A stretch of 64,000 nucleotides of DNA, taken from assembly GCA_026004615.1 (NCBI GenBank), contig BPJM01000001.1, positions 443,482-507,481 of the forward strand, given 5' to 3'. The position numbers and the translations under genes were made by a program. Each line of letters begins with the position of its first letter. The first letter of the stretch is position 1. Positions 5,821-25,999 of this stretch are shown here, piece by piece. Origin of the DNA: Planctomycetota bacterium. Lineage in GTDB: Bacteria > Planctomycetota > J058 > J103. The notes under the pieces are model-generated. The model saw nothing but the letters and a program-made list of their open reading frames with translations, was not told the origin of the DNA and made no database searches.

Positions 5821-6011
5821 CTAGCCCCCCCGCGCGCGCGAGCAGCGCCAGCAGCTCCGCGGCGGCGGGCAGCGCGCCCAGCTGTTCGAGCGCCGGCTGC
5901 GCGCGCCGCCGCCAGTTGGGGCAGTCGGCGCCGGTGCCGGGGACGTTCTGCGGCCGCGTCTCCAGCCACAGGTCCTCCAGATTCAGCAGCACCCAGCGCG
6001 CCTCGCTCGCC
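5821..6011 (-). repeat. Left copy of island-flanking direct repeat = orphan duplicate of the last ~63 codons of malQ
   Basis: Nearly identical to 25807..25999. I count 2 substitutions and one 2-nt indel. ORF 5741..5992 translates LLNLEDLWLETRPQNVPGTGADCPNWRRRAQPALEQLGALPAAAELLALLARAGG, versus the malQ C-terminus ...LLNLEDLWLETRPQNVPGTGAECPNWRRRAQPALEQLGALPAAAELLALLARARGG. Confidence 0.9.
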
Positions 6012-6062
6012 GGGTTCCAGCGGCCCCTCGACCGTTACGGGTGCCCCCGCTCCGCCTGGATC

Positions 6063-8906
6063 TCAGCCGTCATCGCTGACCTCCAGGCAGCTCGAGATGC
6101 CCAGATCATCGAGGATCCGGCGAAGCTCGGCCGCCAGGTGCCCCGCAAGGTCGCGTTGGACCGTGACCGCGAACTCCACGTTGAGCTTCAGCTCCGAGCC
6201 CGTCCTTCGCAGCACCGGAACGAGTTTGGTCCCCAGGCGGTTCCAGACGTCGGGGGGAACGGCGCCCGACAGGCGAATGGTGCTCGTCTGGACGCCGGGG
6301 GCCGGCTCGAGCCCCGGCTCCGGTGCGGGGCAGGGCTCCGGTGCGGGGCAGGGCCCCGGTCTCGATAGGGGAGGCGGGGGTTCCGCTCCCCCTTCCGGAA
6401 CAGGCGCCGGAATGCCCGCCTCGAGCGCCTGCGCCCTGGCCCTGGTCAGCAAAAAGACGTCCGGCTCGAAGGCGACCTCGTCGTGGGGGACCGGCTCGCC
6501 GAACCAGATCCGCTCGTAGGTTCCGTCCGCCTTCTCGCCCGAGGCGAGGCCGAACTCGCCCCTTGCGACGAACTCGACGATCTTCTCCCGCAGGGTCTTC
6601 TCCGGGTCGAGGAGCCTCGTCAGCGAGCCGTTCAGGAAACTCTGGCGCAGGCTGGCGAGCGGCCACGCGCCCGACTCCTTCAGGGCAGGAGGCCAGTTCC
6701 TCTCGATGTAGCCCGCACCGACAGACTCGTTGAGCAGGGCTTCGGACTTGAGCGCGGCGATGACCCTGCCGCACAGGGTCTCGCCGCTCGAGGAGTGGCC
6801 GGCCCCGAGGTCGATGGTCTTGAGGCCGTCACCCTCAGCCTCGCTCCCTGTTCCCCCGGGGGAGGCTTGGGGTGAGGGCTCATAGATCACAGCGAACCGG
6901 TAGCCCGCCCACACCTCGTCCTTCGCCGCCTCCTCTGCGGCCGCGACCTTCGAGCGGAGGCCGGCGCGATCCGACCCGTCGAACTCACCTCCCAGCGTAC
7001 CCTCGTCCACTTCCCGGGCTACTCGCTTCCACGCGAGCCACAGCTCCACCTTCTCGCGCAGATCCCGCCCCGGCTTCTTGAGGCACCACACGAGCGATCC
7101 CGGGTACAGGCGCGGGGATCTGCCGCGCTGCCTGGTCCATTCCGCGATCTGGCTCCTCAGCGGTCCGCCGCCCGTCCACTCGGCCTCCGGTTCAGCGACG
7201 ACCAGCGTGAGCCTCGGGGTGTCCGGGACGTCGGCTCCGTCCCGGGGGAAAAGCGTCACGGGAATGCTCGCTCCCCGGCGGAACTCAACCTCGACGAGCT
7301 TGCGCATCGCAGGCTTGATCTCGGTCTCCTCGTCCAGCGACGCCCGCCGGTCGTTCACCACCTTCTTCATCGTGGGCTGGTGGCTGATCTTGAACCCGTC
7401 CGCGCCCACCTTCCGGATGAAGTAGGACCTGTCCTCGAGCGCGAACGCGGCGCTGTCCACCGAGGTCGTGTCCACCTGCGGCTCGCCGAGGGCGAAGCGC
7501 AGCTCCGGCAGGTGCGCCACCTTGTCGGTCTGGCCGCCCGAGGACTCGAAGAGGATCGCCGTCCCCACGCGGCGGTGGATATCGCGCAGCGGCCCTTTCG
7601 TATCGGCATCCAGGGCGCGGGCGTGCGAGGTTTGGCCTGCTATGTCTGCCTCGATCGCCGCGACGAGCCGGGACTCCCCGAGCTGACCCAAAATCGTGCT
7701 CCGGAACCCCAGATCGTGAAGCGGGGCGGAGCCGAGCGTGATGAGCGGCTCGCGCCGGGCGGTCGTGAATCCGTCCCGATATGCCCAGGCGATCCACTGC
7801 GCGAGCATCGCCAGGGTCCCGCGCGTCTGCTGGTACTGGGGCAGCGCCTGCCACTTTCTCTGGAAGACCGAGAGCGTGGCCGGGTGGAAGGGGTAACACG
7901 CCTCGAATCGGCTGCGGAGGTACTGGCGGGCCTTGGCCTCCGTCGCCACCGCGTCCACCGCGGTCCATTCCCGCGGCAGCTGGGCGCGCCGTTCGAAGCA
8001 CCAGTCGGCGAAGGCCTTGGCCACGTTCTTCCTGACCCGCTCGCTTCCCAGGTCCTCGAACAGCCGCCGCCGGACGACCTCGCTGATCTCCGTCTCGTCG
8101 TTGGCGATCAGGTCCCTGGCGACGCGGCGCACGACCTTGGTGATCTTCTCCTGCCACTGCAGGTCCCAGTCGGTCATCTCGACCTGGCTGCGCGGGAGGC
8201 TGATCACCGCCGCGCCGTGGGTCGTCCCGGTCGTGGCGACCGTCAGATTCTGGATGAAGGCATGGAAGGATTCCGCCATCCCGCGGTGCCGGTTGAGGAA
8301 GTTGAGCACCTCGTCGAACAGAAGCAGCACGGGGGCGTTGGCCGCCTGAAAGACGCGGGCGATGGACTCCGTTCCCGGAGGGATCGTCTTCGCCGCGGTC
8401 CCCAGCGCTTCGACCCCCGCGTCACCCGCGAGCTGGCGGGCGAGGTCGATCCACGGGGTCTCGCGGCCCTCCTGCGGGTCCCAGGCGTTGCCGACGAACA
8501 CGCCCACGCGCGCCTTGGGAACCGAGGAGAGGCCGGCCTCCCGGATCAGATCGGCGACCCCCGGGCACCCGTACGCCTTGTCGCCGCTCGTGCCGAGGTG
8601 GTAGAGGGCGGTGAGCGTGTGCGTCTTGCCGCCGCCGAACTGGGTGATCAGGGTCAGGACCGGGGCGGTGTTGTCGGTCCTGCCGGAGAGCCTGCGCAGC
8701 ACCATGCCCGCGTGTTCCCGAAGCGCGCGCGTCCAGCACGTGCGCGCAAAGAACTGCGCGGGATCCCGATAGTCCTCGGGGGCCGTTCCGGCCACCACCT
8801 GCTCGAGGGCGATGGCGAACTCGTCCGGGTTGAAGGACCGTCCCTCCCGGACTTCTCTGCGCGGGGTTGCGACTTTGTACCAAGGTTCCATGTCATTCCC
8901 TGCCAC
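6063..8906 (-). CDS. DUF499-family (COG1483) P-loop ATPase, 947 aa, intact
   Basis: ORF 6063..8906. The N-terminus reads PWYKVATPRREVREGRSFNPDEFAIALEQVVAGTAPEDYRDPAQFFARTCWTRALREH...LITQFGGGKTHTLTALYHLG, which is the signature opening of DUF499 proteins. No internal stops. It contains an 18-nt perfect tandem duplication near the 3' end (6318-6353, PCPAPE x2). Confidence 0.9.
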   Translation of the reverse strand: MAGNDMEPWYKVATPRREVREGRSFNPDEFAIALEQVVAGTAPEDYRDPAQFFARTCWTRALREHAGMVLRRLSGRTDNTAPVLTLITQFGGGKTHTLTALYHLGTSGDKAYGCPGVADLIREAGLSSVPKARVGVFVGNAWDPQEGRETPWIDLARQLAGDAGVEALGTAAKTIPPGTESIARVFQAANAPVLLLFDEVLNFLNRHRGMAESFHAFIQNLTVATTGTTHGAAVISLPRSQVEMTDWDLQWQEKITKVVRRVARDLIANDETEISEVVRRRLFEDLGSERVRKNVAKAFADWCFERRAQLPREWTAVDAVATEAKARQYLRSRFEACYPFHPATLSVFQRKWQALPQYQQTRGTLAMLAQWIAWAYRDGFTTARREPLITLGSAPLHDLGFRSTILGQLGESRLVAAIEADIAGQTSHARALDADTKGPLRDIHRRVGTAILFESSGGQTDKVAHLPELRFALGEPQVDTTSVDSAAFALEDRSYFIRKVGADGFKISHQPTMKKVVNDRRASLDEETEIKPAMRKLVEVEFRRGASIPVTLFPRDGADVPDTPRLTLVVAEPEAEWTGGGPLRSQIAEWTRQRGRSPRLYPGSLVWCLKKPGRDLREKVELWLAWKRVAREVDEGTLGGEFDGSDRAGLRSKVAAAEEAAKDEVWAGYRFAVIYEPSPQASPGGTGSEAEGDGLKTIDLGAGHSSSGETLCGRVIAALKSEALLNESVGAGYIERNWPPALKESGAWPLASLRQSFLNGSLTRLLDPEKTLREKIVEFVARGEFGLASGEKADGTYERIWFGEPVPHDEVAFEPDVFLLTRARAQALEAGIPAPVPEGGAEPPPPLSRPGPCPAPEPCPAPEPGLEPAPGVQTSTIRLSGAVPPDVWNRLGTKLVPVLRRTGSELKLNVEFAVTVQRDLAGHLAAELRRILDDLGISSCLEVSDDG

Positions 8907-10052
8907 CTGCCGGGGTCTGTCCGGTCAGGAGCGAAAAGTCCTTGGGCGTGAGCTCCTGCGTCGTCTGGACGAACCAACCCCACGAACGGGACGGATCCCT
9001 GCCCCGAAAGGCATCGAGCCGGCCCCGGAGCTTCTCGTCGATGGAGACCGGGCGATCGAGGTACATTTGGACCTGCTCGAGGGTGATCGTCCAGGGGTAG
9101 CTCTCCTTTTCCCGCACGGCGGATGCGGTCTATGCTCCGGGCCGCTCTTCACCCGGGCGTGCGCGACGACCCCCGTTCCGCTCGCGTAGAACGCGATCCA
9201 GTCCCCCGCCTGGATCCGGGTTCGGTGGGGGGTGCGGTCTCCAAAAGCGTAGACGCCCTCGGAAAGCAGCCTTTGGATCTTTTCGGCCGCCGAGGAATCC
9301 GCATCGCCGCTTACCGGAGTCAGCCAGCAGGATCCGCCGGTCCTGCGCTCCTGCTCGGTACCGGCCGGCATCGCCGGTTCGAGGGCCTGCCCCTGGGCTG
9401 TCGCCTGGGCAACGATCGTCGAAACGACGCGCACGAGCGGACTGATGCTCGGCTCCGGGGGTTTCAGGAACCGCAGGACATCCGCATGGGGGACATCGTA
9501 ATCCCTCATGAGCTCCGCCAGGGAAAGGAGTTCCTCCACATCGATGACGCGGAGCTGTTCCGTCCTCTTCTCGGCACGGATCGCGTTCTCGATCTGTCTG
9601 GTGTCCGAATCCCGGCGGCCGATGGCGTAGAGTCCGATGGCCTTGTCCCAGCTCGGGATCCGGCGCGCGGAGATCAGCTCGTCGACATATCCCACGAGCG
9701 TCTTCGTTGAAACCGCGTAGGTCTCCGTCGTCTTCACCTCCACGACCACGTGGAACTCGGACGGGGACGTCCACAGGCCGTCGAAGCCGACCTCCCCCCG
9801 GATCCCCCGGTACCGGCCGTACTCGACCTCGAATCCGAGGAGTTCGCCCAGGCGGTTCACGAGGTCCTGGAGGGCCTTGTTGTACTGCTCCTCCGAGGCC
9901 TGGAGGCACTCCTGGACGTAATCCCTCAGAAGGCCGACATCTCCGACCTGGCTTCGCAGGAACCGCCGAAAGCGCTGGCGAGGGGTGTCCTCGCCGGGAC
10001 AGTCATCCAGTTTTCCCACCAGGCTCAGCACCTCCTTGAGCTTCACGGCCAT
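8893..10052 (-). CDS. PD-(D/E)xK restriction-endonuclease-like N-domain fused to an EVE/PUA-like C-domain; one frameshift near 9118-9140
   Basis: ORF 8925..10052 shows GFDGLWTSPSEFHVVVEVKTTE (a D...E-x-K nuclease core) and then IQAGDWIAFYASGTGVVAHARVKSGPE. The reading continues in ORF 8893..9117 (REKESYPWTITLEQVQMYLDRPVSIDEKL...WGWFVQTTQELTPKDFSLL), which is EVE-like. The stop at 8893 overlaps the DUF499 start (8906) by 14 nt. Confidence 0.6.
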
Positions 10053-10109
10053 GTCAGGACCTCCTCCGGCGGGGCGGCACGCCGATACCAGCTTTCCATC
10101 ACGCTCCTC

Positions 10110-11060
10110 CTACGGTCTCTTCATGCGTGCGAACAGCTCGGCCGCGGATTTCTTCAGCCGGCCGAGGTTCGCGTATGCGACCGGCTCGAACCCCCTCTGG
10201 CACGAATACATGCGGTAGCGGATGCCGTCGGTCACGACCACGTCCCGGGGCGTACCGAGCGCTTCGAGGTACCCCTTCGCCTGCTCCAGCGCTCCTTCCA
10301 CGCCCGCTCCCAGGCGCTTCGCCTCGATCACCAGCTGGCAGTTCTCCGGCGTCCGTGGCAGGGCCCGGAACACGGCCACGTCGATGTACCGCCACTTGAC
10401 GGCGATGCGTTCCGGCGGCCAGCCCAGCGCCCGCAGGAACGGAACCACGAAGTGCGCGACCATCTCGTCCTCGCTCGGGTGCTCGCCGAACGCCTGCCGA
10501 TCCCCCACGCGCAGGACGAGGTCGTTCGCTTCCGCAACGAGGCCTCGGAGTGCGGCGGGCACGTCCTCGAGGGGCGGTTGCTCCGGCGGTAGATGCGGCA
10601 AGGCGGCCGTCTGCCAGTGCGTGGGAGGCGAATGCAGGAAGCGGTGGGTATAGTCGAGAACCTCTTCGCTCCAGACGCGCGACAGCCGCCCAGGATTGGC
10701 ACCGAAGACCGGCTTGCCGAACTCATGGGGTTCCGGCAACGGCTGCCAGCGCACGCGGCGCGCGTGCTGGAGGTCCCAGCCGTTCACGTCGTCGAACTGG
10801 TTCAGGTAGAGGTAGTCGCTGGCGACGATCCCGACCGCGCAGATCCTCGAGATCCCGGTCCGTAGCAGGAAGACGTCACCGACCTGGACCTCGCTGGCGA
10901 AGCGGCGGACGAAGCCGCCTTCGAACTCCTGGTCGTCCCGCTCCGCGTTCCAAGGGCCCGCGTCCCCCGGGCCGATCAGGCCGACACCGTACTTCAGGAA
11001 GACGCCGTCATAGGAGCGCACAGCCGGCCCGCCCGAGATCTGCCAAGTTGCGCGCGTCAC
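10110..11060 (-). CDS. Two-domain protein, 316 aa: N-terminal beta-rich putative sensor domain + C-terminal HsdR_N-like PD-(D/E)xK nuclease domain
   Basis: Part of ORF 10110..11270. The likely start is GTG at 11060, overlapping the upstream TGA (GTGA at 11057-11060). The C-terminus reads MVAHFVVPFLRALGWPPERIAVKWRYIDVAVFRAL...CQLVIEAKRLGAGVEGALEQAKGY, resembling the type I HsdR N-terminal nuclease domain (D...E-A-K). The N-terminus (WQISGGP...GVGLIGPGDAGPW...VGDVFLLRTGISRICAVGIV) resembles the small sensor modules fused to McrB/type IV enzymes. The N-domain assignment is tentative. Confidence 0.55.
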   Translation of the reverse strand: MTRATWQISGGPAVRSYDGVFLKYGVGLIGPGDAGPWNAERDDQEFEGGFVRRFASEVQVGDVFLLRTGISRICAVGIVASDYLYLNQFDDVNGWDLQHARRVRWQPLPEPHEFGKPVFGANPGRLSRVWSEEVLDYTHRFLHSPPTHWQTAALPHLPPEQPPLEDVPAALRGLVAEANDLVLRVGDRQAFGEHPSEDEMVAHFVVPFLRALGWPPERIAVKWRYIDVAVFRALPRTPENCQLVIEAKRLGAGVEGALEQAKGYLEALGTPRDVVVTDGIRYRMYSCQRGFEPVAYANLGRLKKSAAELFARMKRP

Positions 11061-11680
11061 TGTGTCGTCCGTCTTTGCGCGCCGAGTTGGCGCAGATGCG
11101 CGCGCAGGTCGTCGAGAAACGCCTTGAGCGATGTATCCTGCTTGCCTGCGCGGAACCAGTCCATCTTTTCGACGAGGTCGCGGGCGAACTCGATCCCGCC
11201 GAGGGTGAACGGGTGGCCAGCCATCCGCACAGCACTGGCGAGTAACTGCTTGTAGTGACCCCTTGTGCACTTCTTTTCACCGACCACGGGGCGGTGACCG
11301 ACCACATCGTTGAATGAATCCGGATCTGCGAGGTACCAGCGTTCCACGTGGGGATCCGGGCAGGCGGCAACCACTCTTCCCTGAAGTTCCTGCGTGGTCG
11401 CACTCGCGATCTCTTTTTTCTTGTCTGCGAACGTCGTACAGTTGCCGTCTATGGCTACGACCACGAGCTCCGGCGGCGCCTCCCCGAAGGCACCCCTCTG
11501 TATCAGCTTCTGGTACGTCCCGAACTCCGCGATGGCCCGGCCGTGTCCGCCTCGCGCGGAGCGAACGCGGAGTTTGACCTTCACCTGCTCCTCCTTCGCG
11601 ACCCGCTCCACAAGCGGCACCAAAAACTCTTCGTGCGCACGATCTTCCACAAACAGATCGATGAGGAGAACGTCACTCAT
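11057..11680 (-). CDS. DUF4276/TOPRIM-like small protein, 207 aa, partner of the upstream ATPase
   Basis: ORF 11057..11680: MSDVLLIDLFVEDRAHEEFLVPLVERV...PELVVVAIDGNC... It has an N-terminal acidic E motif plus a later D-x-N/D motif, as in OLD/TOPRIM-like DUF4276 proteins. The start overlaps the ATPase stop by 8 nt. The family call is from memory. Confidence 0.6.
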   Translation of the reverse strand: MSDVLLIDLFVEDRAHEEFLVPLVERVAKEEQVKVKLRVRSARGGHGRAIAEFGTYQKLIQRGAFGEAPPELVVVAIDGNCTTFADKKKEIASATTQELQGRVVAACPDPHVERWYLADPDSFNDVVGHRPVVGEKKCTRGHYKQLLASAVRMAGHPFTLGGIEFARDLVEKMDWFRAGKQDTSLKAFLDDLRAHLRQLGAQRRTTQ

Positions 11681-12908: not shown

Positions 12909-12918
12909 CGAGACCTCC

Positions 12919-19340: not shown

Positions 19341-19414
19341 GGTCGTCCTGCAGATACCGGCGGCAGTCTGCCTTCGGGTGCGGCTGCATCCGCATGTGGG
19401 GCGTCGGATCAAGC

Positions 19415-19626
19415 CGCGGGATCGCGGGGCGGTGCGACTCGCACAGGCCTGGCCAGAGGAGCGCCGGCACCGCCGCCCGGCACGGCGCCAGCGCCCGCCT
19501 GGCCCACCCCAGACGCAGCGTCCAGGGATGCCCGTGCCGGATCGACCTCTCCCGCGCCGCGTGCTCCGAGGCCTCGGCGGTCGGGAGGTCCACCTCGGCC
19601 AGCCGCTTGCACTCCTCGGGGATCAT
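19415..19626 (-). pseudogene. Orphan DUF1156 5' fragment (~68 codons)
   Basis: ATG at 19626 (ORF 19333..19710): [65 protein letters not shown]. This is colinear with the DUF1156 start at 15930. Similarity is lost near 19415, 75 nt before the RadA-like start. The ATG overlaps the upstream TGA (ATGA at 19623-19626). Confidence 0.85.
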
Positions 19627-20228
19627 GCCGTTTGCTCGATCAGACGCCTGAGGCAGTCGAGCGCGCGGCGGAGGCTCTCCGAGCGCTCGGCCGCCACCGC
19701 CGGGCGCCACTTCGTCTGCACGTACTCGATGAGACGCGAAGAGTAGGCCGGGCCGACCGAGCGCCCACTTCGCTCGCGCGGCACCATGTCCTGCCGAATC
19801 GCGCTGCGCCGCGACCGGCGCGCCAGCTCCACCATGGCGACCTTGGCGTTCGGCAGGCTCTCTGGGTTATCGGGGACCTTGGCTTGCGCGACCCCGAGGT
19901 AGCCGGCCAGGGATGCACGATCCGCCATCAGCCACGCCTCGACCTGCCGCACCGCGACGCGAAAGCAAAGCAGCGGAGCGGGATTGGGAAGCCAGTTCTC
20001 TCGCAGCGGCGGCGCGCAGTCCGCGTCGCTGTCGAGGTCCACGAGGACCAGCCACGGCGTGCGCCGGGCAGCGTTGTTGTAGCCCTGGATCTTCCTCCGC
20101 AAGTCCTGCTTGCCGTTCTGGCCGTATACGCGCCCGGCCTGCCCGCCTGCGCAGGCGATCAACTTCCGCGCCACCACCGCGTCCAGGGGCCCCTCGACGG
20201 CCGCATGGATCACCACGGGGTTCGGCAT
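19623..20228 (-). CDS. TOPRIM-like (DUF4435/DUF4276 class) small protein, 201 aa
   Basis: ORF 19623..20228: VIHAAVEGPLDAVVARKLI (conserved E) and PWLVLVDLDSDADC (DxD), the two acidic motifs of TOPRIM/OLD-type nuclease domains. The start is 2 nt after the ATPase stop. Confidence 0.65.
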   Translation of the reverse strand: MPNPVVIHAAVEGPLDAVVARKLIACAGGQAGRVYGQNGKQDLRRKIQGYNNAARRTPWLVLVDLDSDADCAPPLRENWLPNPAPLLCFRVAVRQVEAWLMADRASLAGYLGVAQAKVPDNPESLPNAKVAMVELARRSRRSAIRQDMVPRERSGRSVGPAYSSRLIEYVQTKWRPAVAAERSESLRRALDCLRRLIEQTA

Positions 20229-20230: not shown

Positions 20231-21382
20231 TCAGAGATCTCCAAACAGCGGGAGCCGCTCCGCGCGCTCAGGCCGTGTCTTCGGGATGACGGCGTCGGCC
20301 AGCGTCAGGCCGCCGTCCAAAAGATCGCGGATCTCGCGGTGCGATGCGGCAATGGTCACCTCGGTGCCCTCGCGGCCGGGAACGAGCAGCACCACCTCGT
20401 CGAGCCCGATCCCCTCGTCCCGCAGGAGCTCCGGCGAGTGCGTGCTGAGGAAGATCTGCCGTCCCGTCCGGCGCTGGACGCGCGCCAGCATCTGCGGCAG
20501 CACACGGACGATCCCAGGATGCAGGGAGAGCTCCGGTTCTTCGAGCAGCAGCGGCCCCTCCTTTTCCATCGCTGCCCACAGGAGTCCCATCAAGCGAAGG
20601 GTCCCGTCCGAGAACTGCTCCTCGGTCTGCCACGCGCCTCGCGGCCGCCAGTGAGCGTACTTGCCGCGAAGGTGTGGTGTGCCGCGAGCGTCGCGCCAGA
20701 GCTCGACCTCCTCCAGTTGCGGGACCGCGACGCGCAGGGCTTCCCGGATGCGCCGCAGGCGCGCGCTCCGCGTCCGCTCCGGCGTCCTGGCCACCTGCTC
20801 CAGGAAGTCCCCCCCGAAGGGATCGTTCGAGCGGCCCACGGAGCGGTCGGGCTCCCGGACGAGCTGCGGGACGATGTGCAGGTAGCGGATGGATGCGAAG
20901 AACGTCGCGACCTCACGGAAGTCCCGATTCACGTTGACCTGCTCGAGGAAGGTCTGGCTGAGGCGCGCGGGGTCGGCCTCGTCGTCCTTGTTGGGCCGCT
21001 CGAGAAGTGTCTCGCCGCCGCGCAGCACGCGCTCCTTGCGCAGGAGCGCTCGCCGCTGTTGGTCCTGGCTGAAGGCGACCTCGTACGTCCAGCGCGGCCC
21101 GTCGTGTTCCCTCTGCAGCTCGACTGCGACCTCGATGGCCGGGTAACGCCGCGCGGCCAGGCATCGGATCGCGCTCACCCCACCACGGCGACCGACGGCT
21201 TCCTGAAAGCCGCCGCCCGTCGAGGCGAGATCCCGCAGGAAGCGAAACGCATCCAGGAGATTCGACTTGCCCGAGGCATTGGGACCGACGAGGAACAGGC
21301 GGTCGCCGATCTCGATCTCGACCTCGGCGAAGTTCTTCCAGTTCGTCAGGCGAAGTTTGCGGAACTTGAGGGGAGAGCTCAT
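20231..21382 (-). CDS. ABC/SMC-fold ATPase (AAA_15/AAA_21 class), 383 aa, paralogue of 11673..12908
   Basis: Internal ATG (21382) of ORF 20231..21490: MSSPLKFRKLRLTNWKNFAEVEIEIGDRLFLVGPNASGKSNLLDAFRFL (Walker A), LLLEEPELSLHP, IFLSTHSPELL. The ATG overlaps the helicase TGA (ATGA at 21379-21382). Confidence 0.85.
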   Translation of the reverse strand: MSSPLKFRKLRLTNWKNFAEVEIEIGDRLFLVGPNASGKSNLLDAFRFLRDLASTGGGFQEAVGRRGGVSAIRCLAARRYPAIEVAVELQREHDGPRWTYEVAFSQDQQRRALLRKERVLRGGETLLERPNKDDEADPARLSQTFLEQVNVNRDFREVATFFASIRYLHIVPQLVREPDRSVGRSNDPFGGDFLEQVARTPERTRSARLRRIREALRVAVPQLEEVELWRDARGTPHLRGKYAHWRPRGAWQTEEQFSDGTLRLMGLLWAAMEKEGPLLLEEPELSLHPGIVRVLPQMLARVQRRTGRQIFLSTHSPELLRDEGIGLDEVVLLVPGREGTEVTIAASHREIRDLLDGGLTLADAVIPKTRPERAERLPLFGDL

Positions 21383-24300
21383 GGTTCCTCCGGTGTCCTG
21401 TACGGCGGGGCTTCCTCGCGCACCTGCATCGGTCGCGTCATCGCATCCACCGACAGGTAGTAGTGGGCCACTTTCGTGACCTCGTGCCACTCGAGGCGCG
21501 CAGGGTCCTTGATCGGCTCCTGGAGCTGCGGCATCGCCGCGCAGTTCGTGACGATATACAGCCAGTAGCAGTCGCGCCGGTCCTCGGCCACGCGGCGTTC
21601 GTTCGGCGTGAGAAGGATGGTGCCCGTGGCCTCCGCCAGCCCCTTCACCTCGATGAGGCGCAGCTCCCCGGAGTTCAGGTCCAGGCTCGTGAGGTCGTAG
21701 CCCAGGTTCTTCTCGTGGACGTCATAGACCTGCCGGCCCTGGGCGCGCTCGTAGTCCATGACCACGCGCATGGCGATGGCCTCGGTCTCCGGGTTGGGCT
21801 GGAGTCGCCGGACTTCCGGCGTCTCGCGCTCGGGGTGGGGCAGAACCAGGACGCTCGCCATGCGTTCCACGCCTTGTAGCGTCAGCGAGCGCTGCCGCTC
21901 CAGCTCCTTGCGCCGCCGCTCCCGCCGCTGGCGCAGCTCCTCATGCCGGGCTTCGGCCTGGGCGAGACGCCCTTCCGCGCCCTGTTCCCCGCGATCCACG
22001 GCTTCCTGCGCCCGGCCGATCTCCTCGTCTGCCCGCTGCAGCAGCTCGGTGAGGGAGAGCTCGACGTGGGCCGCAATGCGCTCCACCTCGGCCAGCCGCT
22101 CCTCCCGCGTCTCCTCCAGAAAGGGCACGAGCGCATGCGTGTGGATCCACGCCGCCGCCTCGGGAAGCATGGCCACCGCCGGGAGTGTTTGCGGCGCCTC
22201 CGCCGGCGTCAGGTCACCCAGCAGGCTCGGCTCGCGCAGGCACGGCTCCCTGTCCTCGGCGATCTCGACGGCGAACAGGCGTTCGTGGACCACCTGGCCC
22301 ATGCCATCGACGATGCGGGCCCGGTAGAAGTCGATGCGCGCGGGCGCGTCGTGCTGAAGCGAGTAGAACGTCGCTCCCTTCCCGAAGGTCTCGAGCGCCT
22401 GCGCGTAGGTATGCCGCCGGATCGCCTCGAACAGGGGGTGGCCCGGCGTGACCCATTCCAGGTTGTGGGTCTCCGCCGTCTCGCGATCCGTCGAACAGCG
22501 AGGGTACCTGGCCGCCAGTGGAGGCAGCTTCCAGCTCGGCTCGCGCTCGTAGCGGCGCAGCACCGACGGCGTCCTGCCCGGCTCGAAGGTATGGGGAAGG
22601 CGCGGAACCGTCTTGAGCGTCAGGGGTACAAAGTCGGCCGCGTCCCGGATGAAGCGAGCAATCGTCTCGGGCACGACTCGCCGCTCTTGAGCCCGCGCCC
22701 GGCGCTCGATGAGCATCTCCAGATTGAGTTTCTTCGATGCGAGCCCCTCGAGCGCGTTCTGGCAGATGGCGCGGAACTGGCGCTCGTCCACGTTCCTCAG
22801 GAGCCGCTCCTCGAGGTCGGCCTCGCCGAGCCGCCCCGCGTAGTAGTCGCGGAGCACACGCTCCACGTGGGCCGCAGGCAGGATCTCGCCGACCACGTTG
22901 AAGACGGCATCGTCGTCGAGGGCGTCGCGGATCTCCTGGAGCTTCTCCAGCAGCCGCTGCAGCACCCGGCCCTCGATCGTGTTCGTGGCCACGAAGTTGA
23001 AGATCAGGCAGTCCTTGCGCTGGCCGTAGCGGTGGATGCGGCCCATGCGCTGCTCGAGCCGGTTCGGGTTCCACGGGATGTCGTAGTTGAACAGGATGTT
23101 GCAGACCTGGAGGTTGATGCCCTCGCCCGCCGCCTCGGTCGCCACCAGGATCTGGATCGCCCCCTCGCGGAACTGCTGTTCGGCATGAAGCCGCGTCCCT
23201 GGCTCGTCTCGCGATCCCGGTTTCATTCCGCCGTGGATACAGCCCACGCGAAAACCCCAGGACTCGAGCCGCTCCACGAGGTAATCCAGCGTGTCCTTGA
23301 ACTCCGTGAAGATGAGGAGCCGCTTCTGCGGGTGGTCGAAAAAGCCTTCCTGCTGGAGCAGCTCTTTCAGCTTCGAGAGCTTGGCCTCCACGCCGGAGTC
23401 CTCGACCGTCCGGGCCTGGGCGGCGAGTTGTCGGAGCTCCTGGACCTCCTCCCGGACCTGCTGGGCGTTGCCCGCGAGGGTGATGGCTTCCAGCGTTTCT
23501 TCCAGCCTCTCGCGCTCGCTTTCCTCCATCTCCTCCAGCTCTTCAGGGTCGGGAAGGTCCGGCGGCGCCAGTCGAGCGAGCTCATGGGCTCGCTTCAGCC
23601 CCTCCTCCAGGCGCCTGGCCCGGTTCTCGAGGGAGTGCCGCATCGCGTACGTGCTGGAAGCCAGCCGCCGCTGATAGAGGGACATCAAGAAGCCGACGGC
23701 GCGCGCGCGGGGGTCGTCGCCCTGGGCCGCAGCCCTGGCGCTCTGCCGCTTGACGAAGCGCGTGATGTCGCGGTAGAGCTCGAACTCCGCCCCGTCGATC
23801 TGGAACTGCACGGTGTGCGGGATGCGCTTCGTGAAGATCTTCCTGGCCACCCACGCTCCGTCGGACCGGCGCTCCGGGAAGTACACCATCGCCTCCTTCG
23901 TTCGGCGCAGGTAGAAGGGCGCGCGCCGGCGATCCATGGCCTCGCGGATGGACCGGACGTCCGCATAGGCGTCCGCATCGAGGAGCTGCAGGAACAGGCT
24001 GAAGTTGCGCGGATCGCCCTTGTGCGGCGTGGCGGTGAGCAGCAGCATGTGGTCGGATGTGTCCCGCAGCAGCTCGCCCAGCTTGTAGCGCAGGCTCTTG
24101 TGGGTCTGGTCGGCCGCCGACATCCGGTGCGCCTCGTCGACGATGACCAGGTCCCAGTGGACCTGCCGAAGCCCGGGAAGGATCTCCTTGCGCTTGGCCA
24201 GGTCGAGCGAGGTGATGATCTTGTTTCGCTCCAGCCACTGGTTGACGCCGAACTGGTCGCGGATGGCGTCGCCCTTGAGAACGAGGAACGTCGCGTCGAA

Positions 24301-24819
24301 CTTCTCCTTCAGCTCCCGTTGCCACTGGAAGGCGAGGTTGGCGGGACAGACGACGAGAATGCGTTCGGCCAGGCCCCGCAGTTCCAGTTCGCGGATCAGC
24401 AGCCCGGCCATGACGGTCTTCCCAGCCCCGGCGTCATCGGCAAGGAGGAACCGAACCCGGGCGAGCTTGAGCAGGTAGTCGTAGACGGCCTCGAGCTGAT
24501 GCGGCAGCGGGTCGACCCGGGAGATGGAAAGGCCGAAATAGGGGTCGAACTCGTAGGCGATCCCGAGGGAGTACGCCTGCAGTCCGAGTCGAAGCAGGCG
24601 CCCGTCGCCGTCGTAGCTCTGCCTGGTGGCGATGACGGTGAGCCGCTCGAGATCGCGCCTGGTGAGGGTGACCTTGCGAAACCGCTCCGACTCGGTGCCG
24701 ACCAGACCCACCACCCACGTGTCGGGCCCGTGCGCCTGAACGGTCTCCACCCGCATCGGCTCGCTGAACAGGGGTCCCGCGAGGATCTGGCCCTCGGTGA
24801 GCGCCCTTTGCTCACGCAT
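21379..24819 (-). CDS. SNF2-family helicase with C-terminal DUF3883 (nuclease-like) domain, 1146 aa, intact
   Basis: ORF 21379..24819: LADDAGAGKTVMAG (motif I), VIVDEAHRM (II), LLLTATPHKGD (III), ILVATEAAGEGINLQ...YDIPWNPNRLEQRMGRIHRYGQ (V/VI). The C-terminal LGYDLTSLDLNSGELRLIEVKGLAEATGTILLTPNERRVAEDRRDCYWLYIV matches DUF3883. Confidence 0.9.
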   Translation of the reverse strand: MREQRALTEGQILAGPLFSEPMRVETVQAHGPDTWVVGLVGTESERFRKVTLTRRDLERLTVIATRQSYDGDGRLLRLGLQAYSLGIAYEFDPYFGLSISRVDPLPHQLEAVYDYLLKLARVRFLLADDAGAGKTVMAGLLIRELELRGLAERILVVCPANLAFQWQRELKEKFDATFLVLKGDAIRDQFGVNQWLERNKIITSLDLAKRKEILPGLRQVHWDLVIVDEAHRMSAADQTHKSLRYKLGELLRDTSDHMLLLTATPHKGDPRNFSLFLQLLDADAYADVRSIREAMDRRRAPFYLRRTKEAMVYFPERRSDGAWVARKIFTKRIPHTVQFQIDGAEFELYRDITRFVKRQSARAAAQGDDPRARAVGFLMSLYQRRLASSTYAMRHSLENRARRLEEGLKRAHELARLAPPDLPDPEELEEMEESERERLEETLEAITLAGNAQQVREEVQELRQLAAQARTVEDSGVEAKLSKLKELLQQEGFFDHPQKRLLIFTEFKDTLDYLVERLESWGFRVGCIHGGMKPGSRDEPGTRLHAEQQFREGAIQILVATEAAGEGINLQVCNILFNYDIPWNPNRLEQRMGRIHRYGQRKDCLIFNFVATNTIEGRVLQRLLEKLQEIRDALDDDAVFNVVGEILPAAHVERVLRDYYAGRLGEADLEERLLRNVDERQFRAICQNALEGLASKKLNLEMLIERRARAQERRVVPETIARFIRDAADFVPLTLKTVPRLPHTFEPGRTPSVLRRYEREPSWKLPPLAARYPRCSTDRETAETHNLEWVTPGHPLFEAIRRHTYAQALETFGKGATFYSLQHDAPARIDFYRARIVDGMGQVVHERLFAVEIAEDREPCLREPSLLGDLTPAEAPQTLPAVAMLPEAAAWIHTHALVPFLEETREERLAEVERIAAHVELSLTELLQRADEEIGRAQEAVDRGEQGAEGRLAQAEARHEELRQRRERRRKELERQRSLTLQGVERMASVLVLPHPERETPEVRRLQPNPETEAIAMRVVMDYERAQGRQVYDVHEKNLGYDLTSLDLNSGELRLIEVKGLAEATGTILLTPNERRVAEDRRDCYWLYIVTNCAAMPQLQEPIKDPARLEWHEVTKVAHYYLSVDAMTRPMQVREEAPPYRTPEEP

Positions 24820-25632
24820 GCGGCTCTCTTTCTTCCGATTCAGAGGTTACGGCGCAGCCCCTACGACTCCATGCCTCACCAGCCAAGTTGGGATTGTAGT
24901 CGATCCGCGCCTCGATCTCCGAAACGGCGGCGCAGGAGGGTTTCTCGCCCAGCTCCGCCCCGTAGCCGTCGCCGGCGATCGACCGGGCTACCACGAAGGC
25001 GCCTCTCGATCGAGCACTCTCTCCCTGCTCGGAACGTTGGCCTCGAGCACCTCGCGCTCGTCCACCGCCGCGACGGGCGCCAGGGTGTCGATGTCGCCGG
25101 GACGAACCGGAACGATGCGGACGAAGTCGTCCCGCCGCTCGTTCCTGTGGCCGTGGGACCTGGCGAACGGTACGAGGTACGCGCGGGCCCTGGGCTGCTG
25201 CTCGCCGGTCTTTTCGAGCAGGCCCTGGCCGAGCACGCAACCCACCTCCTTCCGGGCGAGGAGGAATGGTTCGAACCGGTCCTGCACCCGGCGGCGGCTG
25301 GCGGCCACGGAGGCGAAACAAGGTCGTCGAAAATACCCTCCTGCACCCTCGCCATGGCCGACCCGCGTCCCTGACACCGCAGCAGCCCCGCCACGACCCC
25401 GAGGCCCGTCCGGGGACAGTCTCACGGCTGGCCCTCTGGCTCCGGTCCCACCTGGCCGGCTGGTCACGGTGGATCGCCCGATCTTTCGGGAACGAGACGA
25501 CCCCTTGCAGGCAGCGCAAGGAGCTCCGGCCTGTGGGCCCGCCACAGCGCCTGCCCCGCCCATGGGCCTGTCCTCTGTTTCCACAGCGGGTCGTTCCTCG
25601 ACGCTACCCCGAGCTTCCCCCAGGCATCGCAC
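24812..25632 (-). CDS. Small upstream ORF(s) of unknown function preceding the helicase; probably frameshifted near 24990; true start uncertain
   Basis: ORF 24988..25632 has a coding-looking part from ...VQDRFEPFLLARKEVGCVLGQGLLEKTGEQQPRARAYLVPFARSHGHRNERRDDFVRIVPV... The tail of ORF 24812..25519 (FVVARSIAGDGYGAELGEKPSCAAVSEIEARIDYNPNLAGE) ends 8 nt inside the helicase start. The N-terminal ~90 codons are Gly/Arg-rich and may be untranslated leader. The first residues (GSVEER) resemble the start of ORF 3674..4081 (RSVEER). Confidence 0.3.
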
Positions 25633-25740
25633 GAAACGATCGCGGCCGGAGGAATCTGACCACGCCGTCGGCCCGCGAGGCCACAGCCCCCAGCCTCGCA
25701 GGGGTTGGGCAGCCGATCCGCGCCGGAAGCACCGCCATGT
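25560..25740 (-). repeat. Copy B of the conserved leader/terminus sequence (copy A at 4020..4200)
   Basis: See copy A for the shared blocks. It lies between the malQ stop / right direct repeat and the first island ORF, so it is at the 5' end of the minus-strand gene array. Confidence 0.6.
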
Positions 25741-25806
25741 CCGCTGCGCCGGCCGAGGACCCGCTCGGCGCCCGCGCCCGCGGCCGGTCCGCCGCGCCGC
25801 AGCCCG

Positions 25807-25999
25807 CTAGCCCCCCCGCGCCCGCGCGAGCAGCGCCAGCAGCTCCGCGGCGGCGGGCAGCGCGCCCAGCTGTTCGAGCGCCGGCTGCGCGCGCCGCCGC
25901 CAGTTGGGGCATTCGGCGCCGGTGCCGGGGACGTTCTGCGGCCGCGTCTCCAGCCACAGGTCCTCCAGATTCAGCAGCACCCAGCGCGCCTCGCTCGCC
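25807..25999 (-). repeat. Right copy of the island-flanking direct repeat (3' end of intact malQ)
   Basis: Matches 5821..6011. Both copies begin at the cta (TAG stop on the minus strand) and end at ...cctcgctcgcc, after which the sequences diverge. Confidence 0.9.

What the first reader, a model, noticed from the sequence alone, without database searches (positions are those of the whole stretch)
5821..25999. ~19.8-kb island bounded by a 191/193-bp direct duplication of the malQ 3' end, with no recombinase or tRNA
Positions 5821-6011 and 25807-25999 are the same sequence; I count 2 substitutions plus one 2-nt indel. Both copies start exactly at the malQ stop codon. The right copy terminates intact malQ. 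The left copy is an orphan fragment lying 98 nt upstream of the GH57 start (5722). The ancestral minus-strand order was therefore malQ then GH57, and everything between about 6012 and 25806 is an insertion. I see no integrase, transposase or tRNA inside or at its edges. A ~190-bp duplication is much longer than a typical att core. This points to homology-driven acquisition or a gene-3'-end-targeting element whose recombinase is elsewhere or lost.
Basis: seen in the sequence. Interest (0 to 1): 0.65.

Follow-up and report, generated by a model that had tools for sequence, protein, structure and literature searches.

The report
Defence island flanked by duplicated malQ end
A ~20-kb horizontally acquired anti-phage (Hma) gene cluster sits just after the sugar-metabolism gene malQ, flanked by two copies of that gene's last ~230 bases; similar duplicated gene ends flank inserted genes inside the cluster, which suggests it was built by the cell's own recombination, not by a dedicated mobile-element enzyme.

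Summary
The repeat is real. 5782-6011 matches 25774-25999 at 220/224 aligned bases plus a 6-nt and a 2-nt indel. It runs 33-39 nt past the malQ stop, so it does not start exactly at the stop. The DNA between the copies is a lower-GC, horizontally acquired Hma defence system: hmaA, a decayed hmaB and hmaC, with embedded cassettes. HmaC is 77-84% identical to proteins from many phyla, whereas the host malQ has no relative above 55%. No integrase or tRNA was found.

GH57 is only a 5' fragment, fused to a decayed IS256 transposase remnant. More defence-gene debris lies to its left, so the variable region runs off the window. The island is a nested mosaic, not a single insertion. Inside it, orphan copies of the hmaA 3' end, the hmaB 5' end (two) and the hmaC 5' end flank individual cassettes. 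Orphan hmaA 3' ends also occur in 3 of 10 other Hma loci, next to non-recombinase cassettes.

Best explanation (confidence about 0.5): homology-anchored, one-ended (HFIR or Campbell-type) insertion by host recombination, with the duplicated gene ends left as scars. Main rival: an integrase-borne island whose integrase has been lost; one distant Hma locus shows exactly that arrangement. The island content is a known kind. The scar pattern is a modest new lead.

The parts
25807..28185 (-). malQ (4-alpha-glucanotransferase, GH77), intact host gene. The gene as called in the source is 723 aa (P0001).
   Evidence: Pfam GH77 E 1e-83 and MalQ_N. P0001 is 100% identical and sits on an 827,893-bp contig. 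GC 0.78.
25774..25999 (.). Right copy of the direct repeat: the last 193 nt of malQ plus 33 nt of 3' UTR.
   Evidence: Local alignment 220/224; blastn E 1e-100.
25567..25737 (.). S element: an unexplained, non-coding-looking segment 37 nt from the repeat, 76% identical to S' at 4027-4188.
   Evidence: No Rfam hit.
24812..25309 (-). Fragment of a DUF6079 (BrxC/PglY-type BREX ATPase family) gene. About 113 of about 1238 residues remain, abutting the hmaA start. Debris of an earlier defence system.
   Evidence: Pfam PF19557 E 1.3e-23, profile positions 222-334 of 1238. 70.6% nt identity to an annotated DUF6079 gene on a Roseomonas plasmid. Papers that mention DUF6079 concern BREX systems.
21379..24819 (-). 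hmaA: SNF2/DEAD helicase with a NOV_C (DUF3883) domain, intact.
   Evidence: PADLOC HmaA E 1.5e-179. Pfam. 84-85% nt identity to L014 hmaA.
20231..21382 (-). HEC-01A ABC/AAA_21 ATPase (embedded cassette X). Its ATG overlaps the hmaA stop codon (ATGA).
   Evidence: PADLOC HEC-01A E 5e-161. The ATGA overlap is read from the alignment.
19623..20228 (-). HEC-01B (partner of HEC-01A, described as TOPRIM-like).
   Evidence: PADLOC HEC-01B E 3e-66. Description from Payne et al. 2024.
19439..19628 (-). Orphan copy 1 of the hmaB 5' end (ATG plus about 63 codons, DUF1156 region).
   Evidence: blastn 81.6% to 15744-15932. tblastn. Alignment. No closer to the resident hmaB than to hmaB of other genomes.
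18063..19412 (-). RadA/Sms-like (KaiC/RecA-fold ATPase plus ChlI/Lon-like C-terminus) protein, cassette Y. Not a site-specific recombinase.
   Evidence: Pfam. NCBIfam sms E 1e-31, far below the family cut-off. PHROGs.
17445..17568 (-). Orphan copy 2 of the hmaB 5' end.
   Evidence: blastn 75.8% to 15808-15930 and 73.8% to orphan 1. Alignment.
17154..17418 (-). Orphan copy of the hmaA 3' end (HmaA residues about 1067-1142, frameshifted), carrying a hairpin insertion at 17303-17336. It directly follows hmaB orphan 2. The listed 228-aa ORF (17176-17862) is spurious.
   Evidence: tblastn 71% aa. blastn 86%. Alignments. Protein comparison.
15927..17123 (-). 398-aa ORF of unknown function, GC 0.55 (cassette Z). 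The least host-like segment.
   Evidence: No hit in Pfam, PADLOC, NCBIfam or PHROGs. GC. Single-sequence AlphaFold model unusable, pLDDT 38.
12922..15932 (-). hmaB (DUF1156 adenine methylase) pseudogene. Its pieces lie in at least four frame segments, and all three frames contain stops.
   Evidence: PADLOC HmaB. tblastn with Planktothrix and L012 HmaB. Stops in all three frames, and only 2 of 56 indels in homopolymers.
11673..12914 (-). AAA_21 / HEC-01A-like ATPase (cassette W). Its ORF reads through upstream into hmaB debris as far as 14321.
   Evidence: Pfam AAA_21 E 2e-29, residues 494-816 of the 882-aa ORF. PADLOC.
10110..11270 (-). DUF8426-like gene, typical of this Hma lineage, where it lies between hmaB and hmaC.
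   Evidence: About 82% nt identity to the genes of L013, L014 and L038 whose precomputed Pfam family is PF28530:DUF8426.
10054..10099 (-). Orphan copy of the hmaC 5' end (about 46 nt). It keeps the conserved junction of DUF8426 stop, spacer and hmaC ATG.
   Evidence: Alignment with L013 and L014. The blastn match to L013 extends into its hmaC start.
8925..10052 (-). 375-aa ORF of unknown function (cassette V), inserted between the hmaC 5' orphan and hmaC.
   Evidence: No family hit. Absent from relatives, where the DUF8426 gene abuts hmaC.
6063..8906 (-). hmaC (DUF499 AAA+ ATPase), intact. The homologous ATG is at 8891.
   Evidence: PADLOC HmaC E 7e-92. Homologues at 77-84% aa identity across phyla. 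81-82% nt identity to L012-L014.
6012..6062 (.). 51-nt tail between the hmaC stop codon and the inner breakpoint of the left malQ copy. Unique sequence.
   Evidence: Sequence. No other match.
5782..6011 (.). Left, orphan copy of the direct repeat: the last 191 nt of malQ plus 39 nt of UTR, continuous with the GH57 upstream region.
   Evidence: tblastn of malQ residues 726-772 at 94%.
4975..5722 (-). GH57 5' fragment (residues 1 to about 249 of an expected protein of about 813 aa). Host-like GC of 0.76.
   Evidence: Pfam GH57. tblastn 56% to the L001 GH57, residues 7-249 only. The L001 GH57 is 813 aa with a DUF3536 domain.
4510..4925 (-). Decayed IS256/Mutator-family transposase C-terminal fragment with at least two frameshifts, fused to the truncated GH57.
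   Evidence: Pfam PF00872 E 1.1e-22, profile positions 247-368 of 379, on a stitched translation.
4027..4188 (.). S': the second copy of the S element.
   Evidence: blastn 75.6% over 172 nt. Alignment.
148..3557 (-). Frameshifted DpdE/DrmD/HmaA-like SNF2 helicase plus a separate helicase-C fragment (3387-3557). A second, decayed defence island that runs off the window.
   Evidence: PADLOC DpdE E 9e-64 and 5e-43. tblastn hits in three frames. GC 0.685.

Best explanation
The region downstream of malQ is a defence-gene hotspot in a high-GC bacterium with no sequenced close relative. Its main occupant is an Hma system (hmaA helicase, hmaB methylase that is now a pseudogene, hmaC ATPase) with five embedded cassettes.

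I propose that the island, and the cassettes inside it, entered by homology-anchored, one-ended recombination carried out by host enzymes. This is homology-facilitated illegitimate recombination (HFIR) or, with the same product, single-crossover (Campbell-type) integration of a circularised fragment.

For the outer event, the incoming DNA would have carried the end of a near-identical malQ, followed by its UTR and the island. The malQ part recombined homologously with the resident malQ. The far end of the fragment, 51 nt past the hmaC stop, was joined illegitimately inside the resident malQ, 191 nt before its stop. The product keeps a complete malQ and leaves the resident's last 191 nt plus UTR as an orphan in front of GH57.

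The same logic, anchored in hma genes, explains the orphan hmaA 3', hmaB 5' (two) and hmaC 5' fragments, including the head-to-tail hmaB5'|hmaA3' junction. Because hma genes overlap or nearly abut, only joints that duplicate a gene end, and do not delete one, leave all genes intact. Selection therefore enriches for these scars.

Shown here: the repeats, their coordinates and identities, the foreign origin of the cargo, the absence of a detectable recombinase, and the recurrence of such scars in other Hma loci. Inferred: the recombination pathway, the nature of the donor and the order of events.
For: (1) The repeat is 230 nt at 98% identity, with no integrase or tRNA in or beside the island. 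Tests: Pfam, PADLOC, NCBIfam and PHROGs on the island's candidate ORFs, six-frame Pfam of the 990-nt gap, and tblastn with two integrases. No recombinase was found among the 13 large right-flank ORFs tested.
(2) The cargo is foreign but the duplicated segment is local. HmaC is 77-84% aa and the hma genes about 80-85% nt identical to homologues in many phyla. No malQ above 55% identity exists elsewhere. The malQ copy therefore did not travel with Hma between phyla.
(3) Four more gene-end duplications lie inside the island, each flanking a cassette. The hmaB5'|hmaA3' head-to-tail junction at 17445/17418 is what an imported fragment hmaA3'-cassette-hmaB would leave.
(4) hmaB orphan 1 is no closer to the resident hmaB (77-82%) than to hmaB of other genomes (up to 81%). 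The resident copy is 86% identical to L012. This fits successive imports better than in-situ duplication.
(5) The pattern recurs. Orphan hmaA 3' ends occur in L013 (88%), L022 (83%) and L028 (95%). That makes 4 of 11 distinct loci, counting the window, where the hmaA-hmaB interval is visible. Breakpoints differ, and the flanked cassettes are a HATPase_c_4 protein, a YhcG nuclease and a DUF4062-HATPase_c_4-HTH protein, none of them a recombinase.
(6) The differences between the malQ copies cluster in the outer 53 nt: 5 of 6 events, P = 0.003-0.03, and Fisher P = 0.011 for substitutions alone. A recombination border near the stop codon would produce this pattern.
(7) There is published precedent for the same inference from orphan arrays: T6SS effector-immunity arrays, Rhs and CDI (PMC5361080).
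Against: No donor and no empty site could be found, because no close relative of the host exists in any collection searched. The pathway is therefore inferred from scars alone.

HFIR needs a donor that already had the island next to a near-identical malQ, which only moves the question of first arrival one step back.

Close Hma relatives in other genomes show no duplication of host flanking genes, so the outer event is a single case.

L024 shows that Hma can ride an integrase island with repeats of similar length.

The malQ-proximal junction contains rearranged debris (S element, DUF6079 fragment) where an integrase could have been deleted.

The S/S' repeat is not explained by this model.

The internal orphans may predate arrival in this genome.

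The window comes from an assembly whose read support I cannot inspect.
Confidence: 0.5

Rival explanations
1. A classical integrative island. A tyrosine or serine recombinase integrated an element whose attP carried a copy of the malQ 3' end, so that malQ is rebuilt on integration. The recombinase gene was later deleted, or it lies outside the window or acts in trans. The two malQ ends are attL and attR.
For: A target gene's 3' end rebuilt on one side, with the displaced copy at the far side, is the hallmark of such islands (established knowledge). L024 shows an Hma system in exactly this setting: tRNA-Leu, a tyrosine integrase (PF00589, E 6e-14), direct repeats of about 230-270 nt, and a third partial repeat indicating tandem accretion. 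The 990 nt between malQ and hmaA, where an integrase gene would be expected, holds truncated debris, so deletions did occur there. S/S' could be arm-like border sequences of two related islands.
Against: No integrase remnant was found in any frame of the gap, by tblastn, or among the ORFs tested in the island, the left part and the right flank. The left end has no room for one, since the hmaC stop is 51 nt from the repeat. The repeat is near-perfect over 177 nt of a gene that has no close relative anywhere, whereas the cargo is shared across phyla. Any such element would therefore have to be specific to this lineage. Four internal gene-end duplications here, and three in other genomes, arose next to cassettes that carry no recombinase. 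S has no match in viral or mobile contigs.
Confidence: 0.25
2. An in-situ duplication during break repair or replication. Possible routes are insertion into a staggered double-strand break, microhomology-mediated template switching (MMBIR), or an unequal sister-chromatid event. Any of these could copy 230 nt of target DNA on both sides of DNA that entered by purely illegitimate joining, with no homologous anchor and no related donor.
For: Both repeat copies are continuous with host DNA on their outer sides (malQ on the right, the GH57 upstream region on the left). Identity is very high over 177 nt. In L022 and L028 the orphans share genome-specific features with the resident hmaA end, including an insertion and the sequence after the stop codon. 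That fits local duplication.
Against: The differences between copies are not spread evenly. The outer 53 nt carry 5 of the 6 events (P = 0.003-0.03), which is unexpected if both copies were identical at birth, although GC-run slippage could inflate this count. hmaB orphan 1 is not specifically related to the resident gene. Target duplications of hundreds of bases are not, to my knowledge, a documented regular outcome of bacterial end joining.
Confidence: 0.15
3. An assembly artefact. Co-existing strains with and without the island were joined in a chimeric contig, creating an apparent duplication.
For: The source appears to be an assembly of an uncultured organism: a single 828-kb contig with no close relative. 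Read support cannot be inspected.
Against: The inner junction joins the hmaC tail to the interior of malQ with no shared k-mer, so it cannot arise from mis-traversal of a repeat in an assembly graph. It needs reads that contain the junction. The two copies differ at six places, so they are not a collapsed repeat. Analogous duplications occur in independent assemblies (L013, L022, L028). The long flanking ORFs are intact, which argues against poor consensus quality.
Confidence: 0.07

Closest known systems
[quoted passage not shown] 2021; bioRxiv 10.1101/2024.01.29.577857)
   Same: The gene trio and order are the same: SNF2/DUF3883 helicase, DUF1156 methylase, DUF499 ATPase. All genes lie on one strand, with cassettes between the hma genes, including HEC-01A/B and other ABC/AAA_21 ATPases. 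Relatives L011-L017, L035 and L038 share the layout.
   Different: hmaB is a multiply frameshifted pseudogene here. The locus holds more embedded genes than the three per gap allowed in that survey. It also carries orphan hma gene ends. The paper's text never mentions recombination, and its only 'duplicat' hit is one occurrence, in the same text that describes removing duplicate protein sequences (term search).
Sequential displacement arrays attributed to homology-facilitated illegitimate recombination: V. cholerae T6SS effector-immunity arrays (PMC5361080), Rhs C-terminal displacement, CDI orphan modules
   Same: New modules enter next to a conserved gene used as a homologous anchor. The older module is pushed downstream and keeps a fragment of the conserved gene. 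Arrays build up stepwise and no dedicated recombinase is present.
   Different: Those arrays displace toxin tips and immunity genes of polymorphic toxin loci. Here the anchors are a housekeeping gene (malQ) and the genes of a defence system. The anchored gene is kept intact, not given a new C-terminus. Both 3' and 5' gene ends serve as scars.
Integrase-borne genomic islands that target the 3' end of tRNA or protein genes
   Same: Direct repeats made of the target gene's 3' end flank the island, the target gene stays intact, and the cargo is defence genes. L024 is an Hma example of this kind with repeats of about 230-270 nt.
   Different: No recombinase or remnant is detectable. The repeat shows 177 nt of near-perfect identity, not a short exact core with diverged arms.
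Core defence hotspots between conserved flanking genes (P. aeruginosa cDHS, PMC10250203; E. coli defence islands, PMC10121019)
   Same: A fixed chromosomal position next to housekeeping genes holds variable, decaying defence cargo, here Hma, a DUF6079/BREX fragment and a DpdE-like helicase. There are signs of turnover and there is not always an integrase.
   Different: Exchange by double crossover in both flanks leaves no duplication. Here one flank is duplicated. No population of related genomes exists to show that the site is a recurrent hotspot.

Membership tests
Hma defence system (PADLOC definition) | HmaA: SNF2/DEAD-box helicase with a DUF3883/NOV_C domain | tested here: met
   PADLOC HmaA E 1.5e-179, covering residues 7-1091 of the 1146-aa protein (profile positions 7-1131 of 1176). 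Pfam SNF2-rel_dom, Helicase_C and NOV_C.
Hma defence system (PADLOC definition) | HmaB: intact DUF1156 DNA adenine methylase | tested here: not met
   Homology spans the full length of the gene, but it is split over at least four frame segments with stops in all three frames. It is present only as a pseudogene.
Hma defence system (PADLOC definition) | HmaC: DUF499 AAA+ ATPase | tested here: met
   PADLOC HmaC E 6.6e-92. NCBIfam DUF499_antiphage E 4e-23, below that model's cut-off. 77-84% aa identity to DUF499 proteins.
Hma defence system (PADLOC definition) | The three genes lie on one strand in the order A-B-C, with embedded genes allowed | tested here: met
   All are on the minus strand in the order hmaA, hmaB, hmaC. 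The same order is seen in L011-L017, L035 and L038.
Integrase-mediated integrative island (gene 3'-end targeting) | Encodes a site-specific recombinase (tyrosine or serine), or a remnant of one | tested here: not met
   No hit in Pfam, PADLOC, NCBIfam or PHROGs for any island ORF. No hit in six-frame Pfam of 24780-25830. tblastn with the L024 and L040 integrases gives E > 3.
Integrase-mediated integrative island (gene 3'-end targeting) | Flanking direct repeats derived from the target gene's 3' end, with the target gene rebuilt | tested here: met
   5782-6011 vs 25774-25999; malQ is intact at the right copy.
Integrase-mediated integrative island (gene 3'-end targeting) | Site-specific excision and integration at a short core within the repeat | not testable with these tools
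   This needs reads, PCR for attB/attP junctions, or conspecific genomes. None are available.
Homology-facilitated illegitimate recombination / Campbell-type insertion | One junction lies within sequence homologous to the recipient (the anchor), and the other is an abrupt joint with no homology | tested here: inconclusive
   The outer end of the repeat fades through a diverged UTR, with differences clustered there (P 0.003-0.03). The inner end (6011/6012) is abrupt. The donor sequence is unknown, so anchor and microhomology cannot be verified.
Homology-facilitated illegitimate recombination / Campbell-type insertion | Dependence on host RecA and end-joining functions, with no element-encoded recombinase | not testable with these tools
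   This requires genetics in the host or a surrogate.
Composite transposon or IS-mediated island | IS copies, or their inverted repeats, at both ends, with a short target-site duplication | tested here: not met
   The only IS-related sequence is one decayed IS256 fragment, outside the island at about 4510-4925. No inverted repeats bracket the island.
Prophage or ICE | Phage structural or replication genes, or conjugation genes | tested here: not met
   PHROGs gave only generic ATPase-type hits to the RadA-like protein. No capsid, tail, relaxase or T4SS domains were found.

The most novel reading that the evidence does not exclude
Duplicated gene ends may be the general footprint of a recombinase-free route by which defence cargo is stacked. 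The route would work at two scales: whole systems stacked next to housekeeping genes, and 'embedded' cassettes stacked inside Hma (and perhaps BREX, DISARM and type I R-M) loci. Each import, anchored in a conserved gene, pushes the previous gene end aside. The orphan fragments would then record the order and the source lineage of successive acquisitions. A more radical variant is that the orphan hmaA 3' and hmaB 5' modules and the S element are functional recombination sites for a recombinase acting in trans, in an integron-like cassette system.
Probability: 0.35. Interest if true: 0.6.

Novelty: new member of a known kind. Interest (0 to 1): 0.42.

Why it matters
Island-finding tools rely heavily on integrases, tRNAs and short att repeats, and this 20-kb defence island has none of them. 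Its borders and internal structure can still be read from duplicated gene ends.

If the scar pattern holds more widely, it offers two things. It is a sequence-only signature for recombinase-free acquisition of defence genes. It is also a first mechanistic clue to how 'embedded' defence cassettes enter Hma-type systems, a question that the paper describing embedding does not appear to address.

The locus also shows selective decay: the methylase is dead while the helicase and ATPase are intact. That bears on whether Hma behaves like a restriction-modification system.

Tried and rejected
- Empty site in relatives. The genome-contig scan with malQ gave only 35-44% relatives. A search of 5.8 billion proteins gave nothing above 55%. 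The window's own contig could not be retrieved. No empty site or donor can therefore be shown; only the synteny malQ(-glgB) then GH57 in L001 supports the ancestral order. Two other relatives lack GH57 downstream of malQ.
- Integrase remnant. A six-frame Pfam scan of the gap found only DUF6079, and tblastn with integrases found nothing.
- HmaC as a hidden recombinase. The L024 integrase (residues 147-249, including Box I) matches HmaC weakly: E 3e-6 against L013 HmaC but 0.02 against the window's HmaC. There is no room for a full catalytic domain, so I rejected this as chance or a shared DNA-binding fold.
- The '228-aa ORF' 17176-17862 as a gene. Rejected: it reads across orphan hmaB and hmaA fragments.
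- Orphans as a single inherited scar or a fixed site. Rejected: breakpoints differ between loci, and the orphans in L022 and L028 carry features specific to their own genome.
- Terminator or hairpin at the junctions. No convincing signal.
- RNA genes in 1-30 kb. None reach Rfam gathering thresholds.
- Structure of the 398-aa cassette protein. The single-sequence AlphaFold model has pLDDT 38, so it was not searched.
- S element. No other copy in the window, the fetched loci or viral contigs.
- Finished plasmids as an artefact-free sample. The one Planktothrix Hma locus examined has no orphan gene ends.
- Host-gene duplications around close Hma relatives. None found.

Full report
OBSERVATION. 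The two sequences are a genuine direct repeat. MAFFT, the repeat finder (family D5, 5825-6022 vs 25813-26010, 96% without gaps) and a local alignment agree. The best alignment is 5782-6011 against 25774-25999, with 220 of 224 aligned bases identical plus one 6-nt and one 2-nt indel. blastn gives E about 1e-100 inside the window.

The right copy closes an intact malQ (25807-28185, minus strand; GH77 E 1e-83). The left copy is an orphan whose stop codon (5821-5823) lies 98 nt upstream of the GH57 ATG at 5722.

The homology does not begin at the stop codon. It continues 33-39 nt into the 3' UTR, where it is more diverged: 3 substitutions and a 6-nt indel there, against 1 substitution in the inner 177 nt. 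Five of the six differences fall in the outer 53 nt (binomial P = 0.003 to 0.03 depending on weighting; Fisher P = 0.011 for substitutions).

WHAT LIES BETWEEN THE COPIES. The window is 72% GC. Host flanks are 0.76-0.81, and the segments between the copies are 0.55-0.72.

PADLOC and Pfam identify an Hma defence system, all on the minus strand. hmaA is at 21379-24819 (E 1.5e-179), hmaB starts at 15932, and hmaC is at 6063-8906 (E 7e-92). Embedded genes are HEC-01A and HEC-01B (20231-21382 and 19623-20228), a RadA/Sms-like ATPase (18063-19412), a 398-aa ORF with GC 0.55 (15927-17123), a second AAA_21 ATPase (about 11673-12914), a DUF8426-like gene (10110-11270) and a 375-aa ORF (8925-10052).

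Hma and its 'embedded' cassettes, including the HEC families, are a published architecture (bioRxiv 10.1101/2024.01.29.577857). The same layout appears in every related locus I fetched.

hmaB is a pseudogene. tblastn with two reference HmaB proteins places its pieces in at least four frame segments. All three frames carry stops. Only 2 of 56 alignment indels lie in homopolymers. hmaA, hmaC and the DUF8426-like gene are intact at similar nucleotide identity to relatives.

The 990 nt between malQ and hmaA hold no integrase. They hold a fragment of a DUF6079 gene, a BrxC/PglY-type BREX ATPase family (E 1e-23; 70.6% nt identity to an annotated DUF6079 gene), and an unexplained element S.

FOREIGN ORIGIN. 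HmaC has over a hundred cluster representatives at 75-84% amino-acid identity. They are named as Armatimonadota, Nitrospira, Planctomycetota, Bipolaricaulota, Rhodothermus, Actinobacteria, Methylomirabilota and others. hmaA, hmaB, hmaC and the DUF8426-like gene are 78-85% identical at the DNA level to loci from such genomes.

The host malQ's best match among 5.8 billion proteins is 55%. Its best named genomic relatives are Myxococcota-type MAGs at 41-44%. The cargo is therefore horizontally acquired. The duplicated malQ segment, by contrast, must come from this lineage itself.

CORRECTIONS TO THE SURROUNDINGS. GH57 is not an intact neighbour. Only residues 7-249 align to the 813-aa GH57 of L001, the one relative in which a malQ(-glgB fusion) is followed directly by GH57. 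At about 4925-4975 the gene runs into a decayed C-terminal fragment of an IS256/Mutator transposase (PF00872, E 1e-22, at least two frameshifts). Further left are a second copy of S (4027-4188), a helicase-C fragment, and a frameshifted DpdE/DrmD/HmaA-like helicase that runs off the window.

The host-like piece that carries the orphan malQ end is thus only about 1.05 kb long, with foreign DNA on both sides.

NESTED DUPLICATED GENE ENDS. Self-comparison of the window, tblastn and alignments show that the malQ repeat is one of several.

Reading along the minus strand, the order is: hmaA; HEC-01A/B; an orphan hmaB 5' end (19628-19439, 82% to the resident copy); the RadA-like gene; a second orphan hmaB 5' end (17568-17445, 76%); directly after it, an orphan hmaA 3' end (17418-17154, 86% nt, frameshifted); the 398-aa ORF; the hmaB pseudogene; the AAA_21 gene; the DUF8426-like gene; an orphan hmaC 5' end (10099-10054) that keeps the conserved junction of DUF8426 stop, spacer and hmaC ATG seen in L013 and L014; the 375-aa ORF; hmaC.

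A map of homology to other Hma loci alternates cleanly between 'core' blocks and cassettes unique to this genome. The listed 228-aa ORF is spurious.

hmaB orphan 1 is no closer to the resident hmaB (77-82%) than to hmaB genes of other genomes (up to 81%). The resident copy is 86% identical to L012.

RECURRENCE ELSEWHERE. The hmaA-hmaB interval is visible in 11 distinct Hma loci, counting the window. Four carry an orphan hmaA 3' end: the window, L013 (88% to its resident end), L022 (83%) and L028 (95%). Their 5' breakpoints differ. In L022 and L028 the orphan shares genome-specific features with the resident end. These are therefore independent events.

The cassettes they flank encode a HATPase_c_4 protein, a YhcG PD-(D/E)XK nuclease and a DUF4062-HATPase_c_4-HTH protein. 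None is a recombinase.

Close Hma relatives in long contigs have no integrase within 10 kb of hmaC and no duplication of host flanking genes. One finished plasmid locus that I examined has no orphans.

MECHANISM. The simplest account of all these scars is homology-anchored, one-ended insertion by host recombination. An incoming fragment pairs through a conserved gene (malQ, hmaA, hmaB or hmaC). Its other end is joined illegitimately a short distance inside the resident copy of the same gene. This leaves a complete gene plus a truncated orphan. Single-crossover integration of a circularised fragment gives the same product.

The model explains four things: the head-to-tail hmaB5'|hmaA3' junction; the variable breakpoints; the absence of recombinases; and, for malQ, the abrupt inner end at 6011/6012 together with the diverged outer end. 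Because hma genes overlap (hmaA and HEC-01A share an ATGA) or nearly abut, only joints that duplicate a gene end, and do not delete one, leave every gene intact. Selection would then enrich for such scars.

The same inference has been drawn for orphan arrays in T6SS, Rhs and CDI loci (PMC5361080). I put this explanation at about 0.5. The pathway, the donor and the order of events are inferred, not shown.

RIVALS.
(a) An integrase-borne island whose integrase has been lost (0.25). L024, a more distant Hma lineage, sits in a tRNA-Leu island with a tyrosine integrase and direct repeats of about 230-270 nt, plus a third partial copy. Neither the repeat length nor the Hma cargo therefore argues against this. 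The debris next to malQ shows that deletions occurred where an integrase gene would be expected. Against it: no remnant was found anywhere, there is no room at the hmaC end, and the same kind of scar arises repeatedly next to recombinase-free cassettes.
(b) In-situ duplication during break repair or template switching (0.15). This is weakened by the clustering of differences and by the foreign-looking hmaB orphan.
(c) Assembly artefact (about 0.07). The inner junction shares no k-mer with malQ, so reads must contain it. Read support could not be checked.

WHAT IS KNOWN AND WHAT IS NEW. The content is a member of a known kind: an Hma system with embedded candidates, here with a dead methylase, in a defence-gene graveyard next to a housekeeping gene. 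The bounding duplication fits known recombination scars.

What I did not find described is that embedded cassettes in Hma loci are often flanked by duplicated hma gene ends. This rests on a term search of the Hma-embedding paper only. If general, the pattern gives a mechanistic clue and a way to detect such events.

LIMITS. No close relative of the host exists in any collection searched, so there is no empty site, no donor and no population data. The window's contig could not be extended to the left. S/S' remains unexplained. The sample of Hma loci is small and consists mostly of metagenomic contigs.

Noticed in passing
window 12922-15932 (minus strand): hmaB, the methylase of the Hma system, is riddled with frameshifts and has stops in all three frames. 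hmaA, hmaC and the DUF8426-like gene are intact at similar identity to relatives. The indels are not in homopolymers, so this is real, selective decay of the modification gene.
   Followed up: yes
window 17303-17336 and 3736-3772; L012 8605-8622; L013 1680-1714 and 9440-9457; L014 2025-2062; L022 4679-4696; L028 1112-1129 and 3127-3144; L032 4675-4692: A small GC-rich palindrome, CCTGCCTGCCGGCAGGCAGG, or longer hairpin versions of it. Compared with orthologues it is a precise 21-nt in-frame insertion in L012 hmaC and in the L013 DUF8426 gene. The exact 20-mer occurs in 35 stretches of IMG/VR, with up to 6 copies in one contig. It is therefore a dispersed tiny palindromic element, not specific to Hma. 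Its nature is unknown.
   Followed up: partly
window 25567-25737 and 4027-4188: S and S': two direct copies of a segment that does not look coding, 76% identical over 172 nt. One lies 37 nt from the right malQ repeat copy, the other to the left of the IS256 remnant. There are no other copies in the window, in the fetched loci or in viral contigs, and there is no Rfam match. They may be border sequences of two related islands.
   Followed up: partly
window 4510-4975: GH57 is truncated after about residue 249 and fused to the C-terminal third of a decayed IS256/Mutator transposase (PF00872, E 1e-22, at least two frameshifts). The N-terminal part of the transposase and the remaining roughly 560 residues of GH57 are missing.
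   Followed up: yes
window 24812-25309: A fragment of a DUF6079 (BrxC/PglY-type BREX ATPase family) gene abuts the hmaA start. It is a remnant of an earlier defence system at the same site.
   Followed up: yes
window 148-3557: A DpdE/DrmD/HmaA-like SNF2 helicase split over three frames, plus a separate helicase-C fragment. This is a second decayed defence island that continues beyond the left end of the window.
   Followed up: partly
L024 200-21330: A distant Hma lineage carried on a classical tRNA-Leu(cag) integrative island. It has a tyrosine integrase at 589-1770, direct repeats of about 230-270 nt (an exact tRNA 3' half plus an arm at 77%), a third partial repeat just upstream of hmaA, and a TIR-domain gene next to hmaC.
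   Followed up: yes
L038 13031-14233 compared with L039: Two otherwise identical Bipolaricaulota Hma loci differ by an IS110-family insertion immediately downstream of hmaC. This is a natural filled site and empty site pair for an IS, not for the island.
   Followed up: no
window 61795-62240 and 40298-42185: The first region holds a dense array of 9/12-nt periodic repeats (CCGCCGGTGCTG-like). The second holds about 147-nt repeats containing GACCTGGACGGCGACGG-type motifs that look like FG-GAP/calcium-binding repeats. Neither is related to the finding.
   Followed up: no
L013 9751-12519 (HmaC residues about 683-796); window hmaC: Weak similarity between the HmaC C-terminal region and the Box I region of the L024 tyrosine integrase (E 3e-6 for L013 HmaC, 0.02 for the window's HmaC). 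I judged this not to be a recombinase domain.
   Followed up: yes
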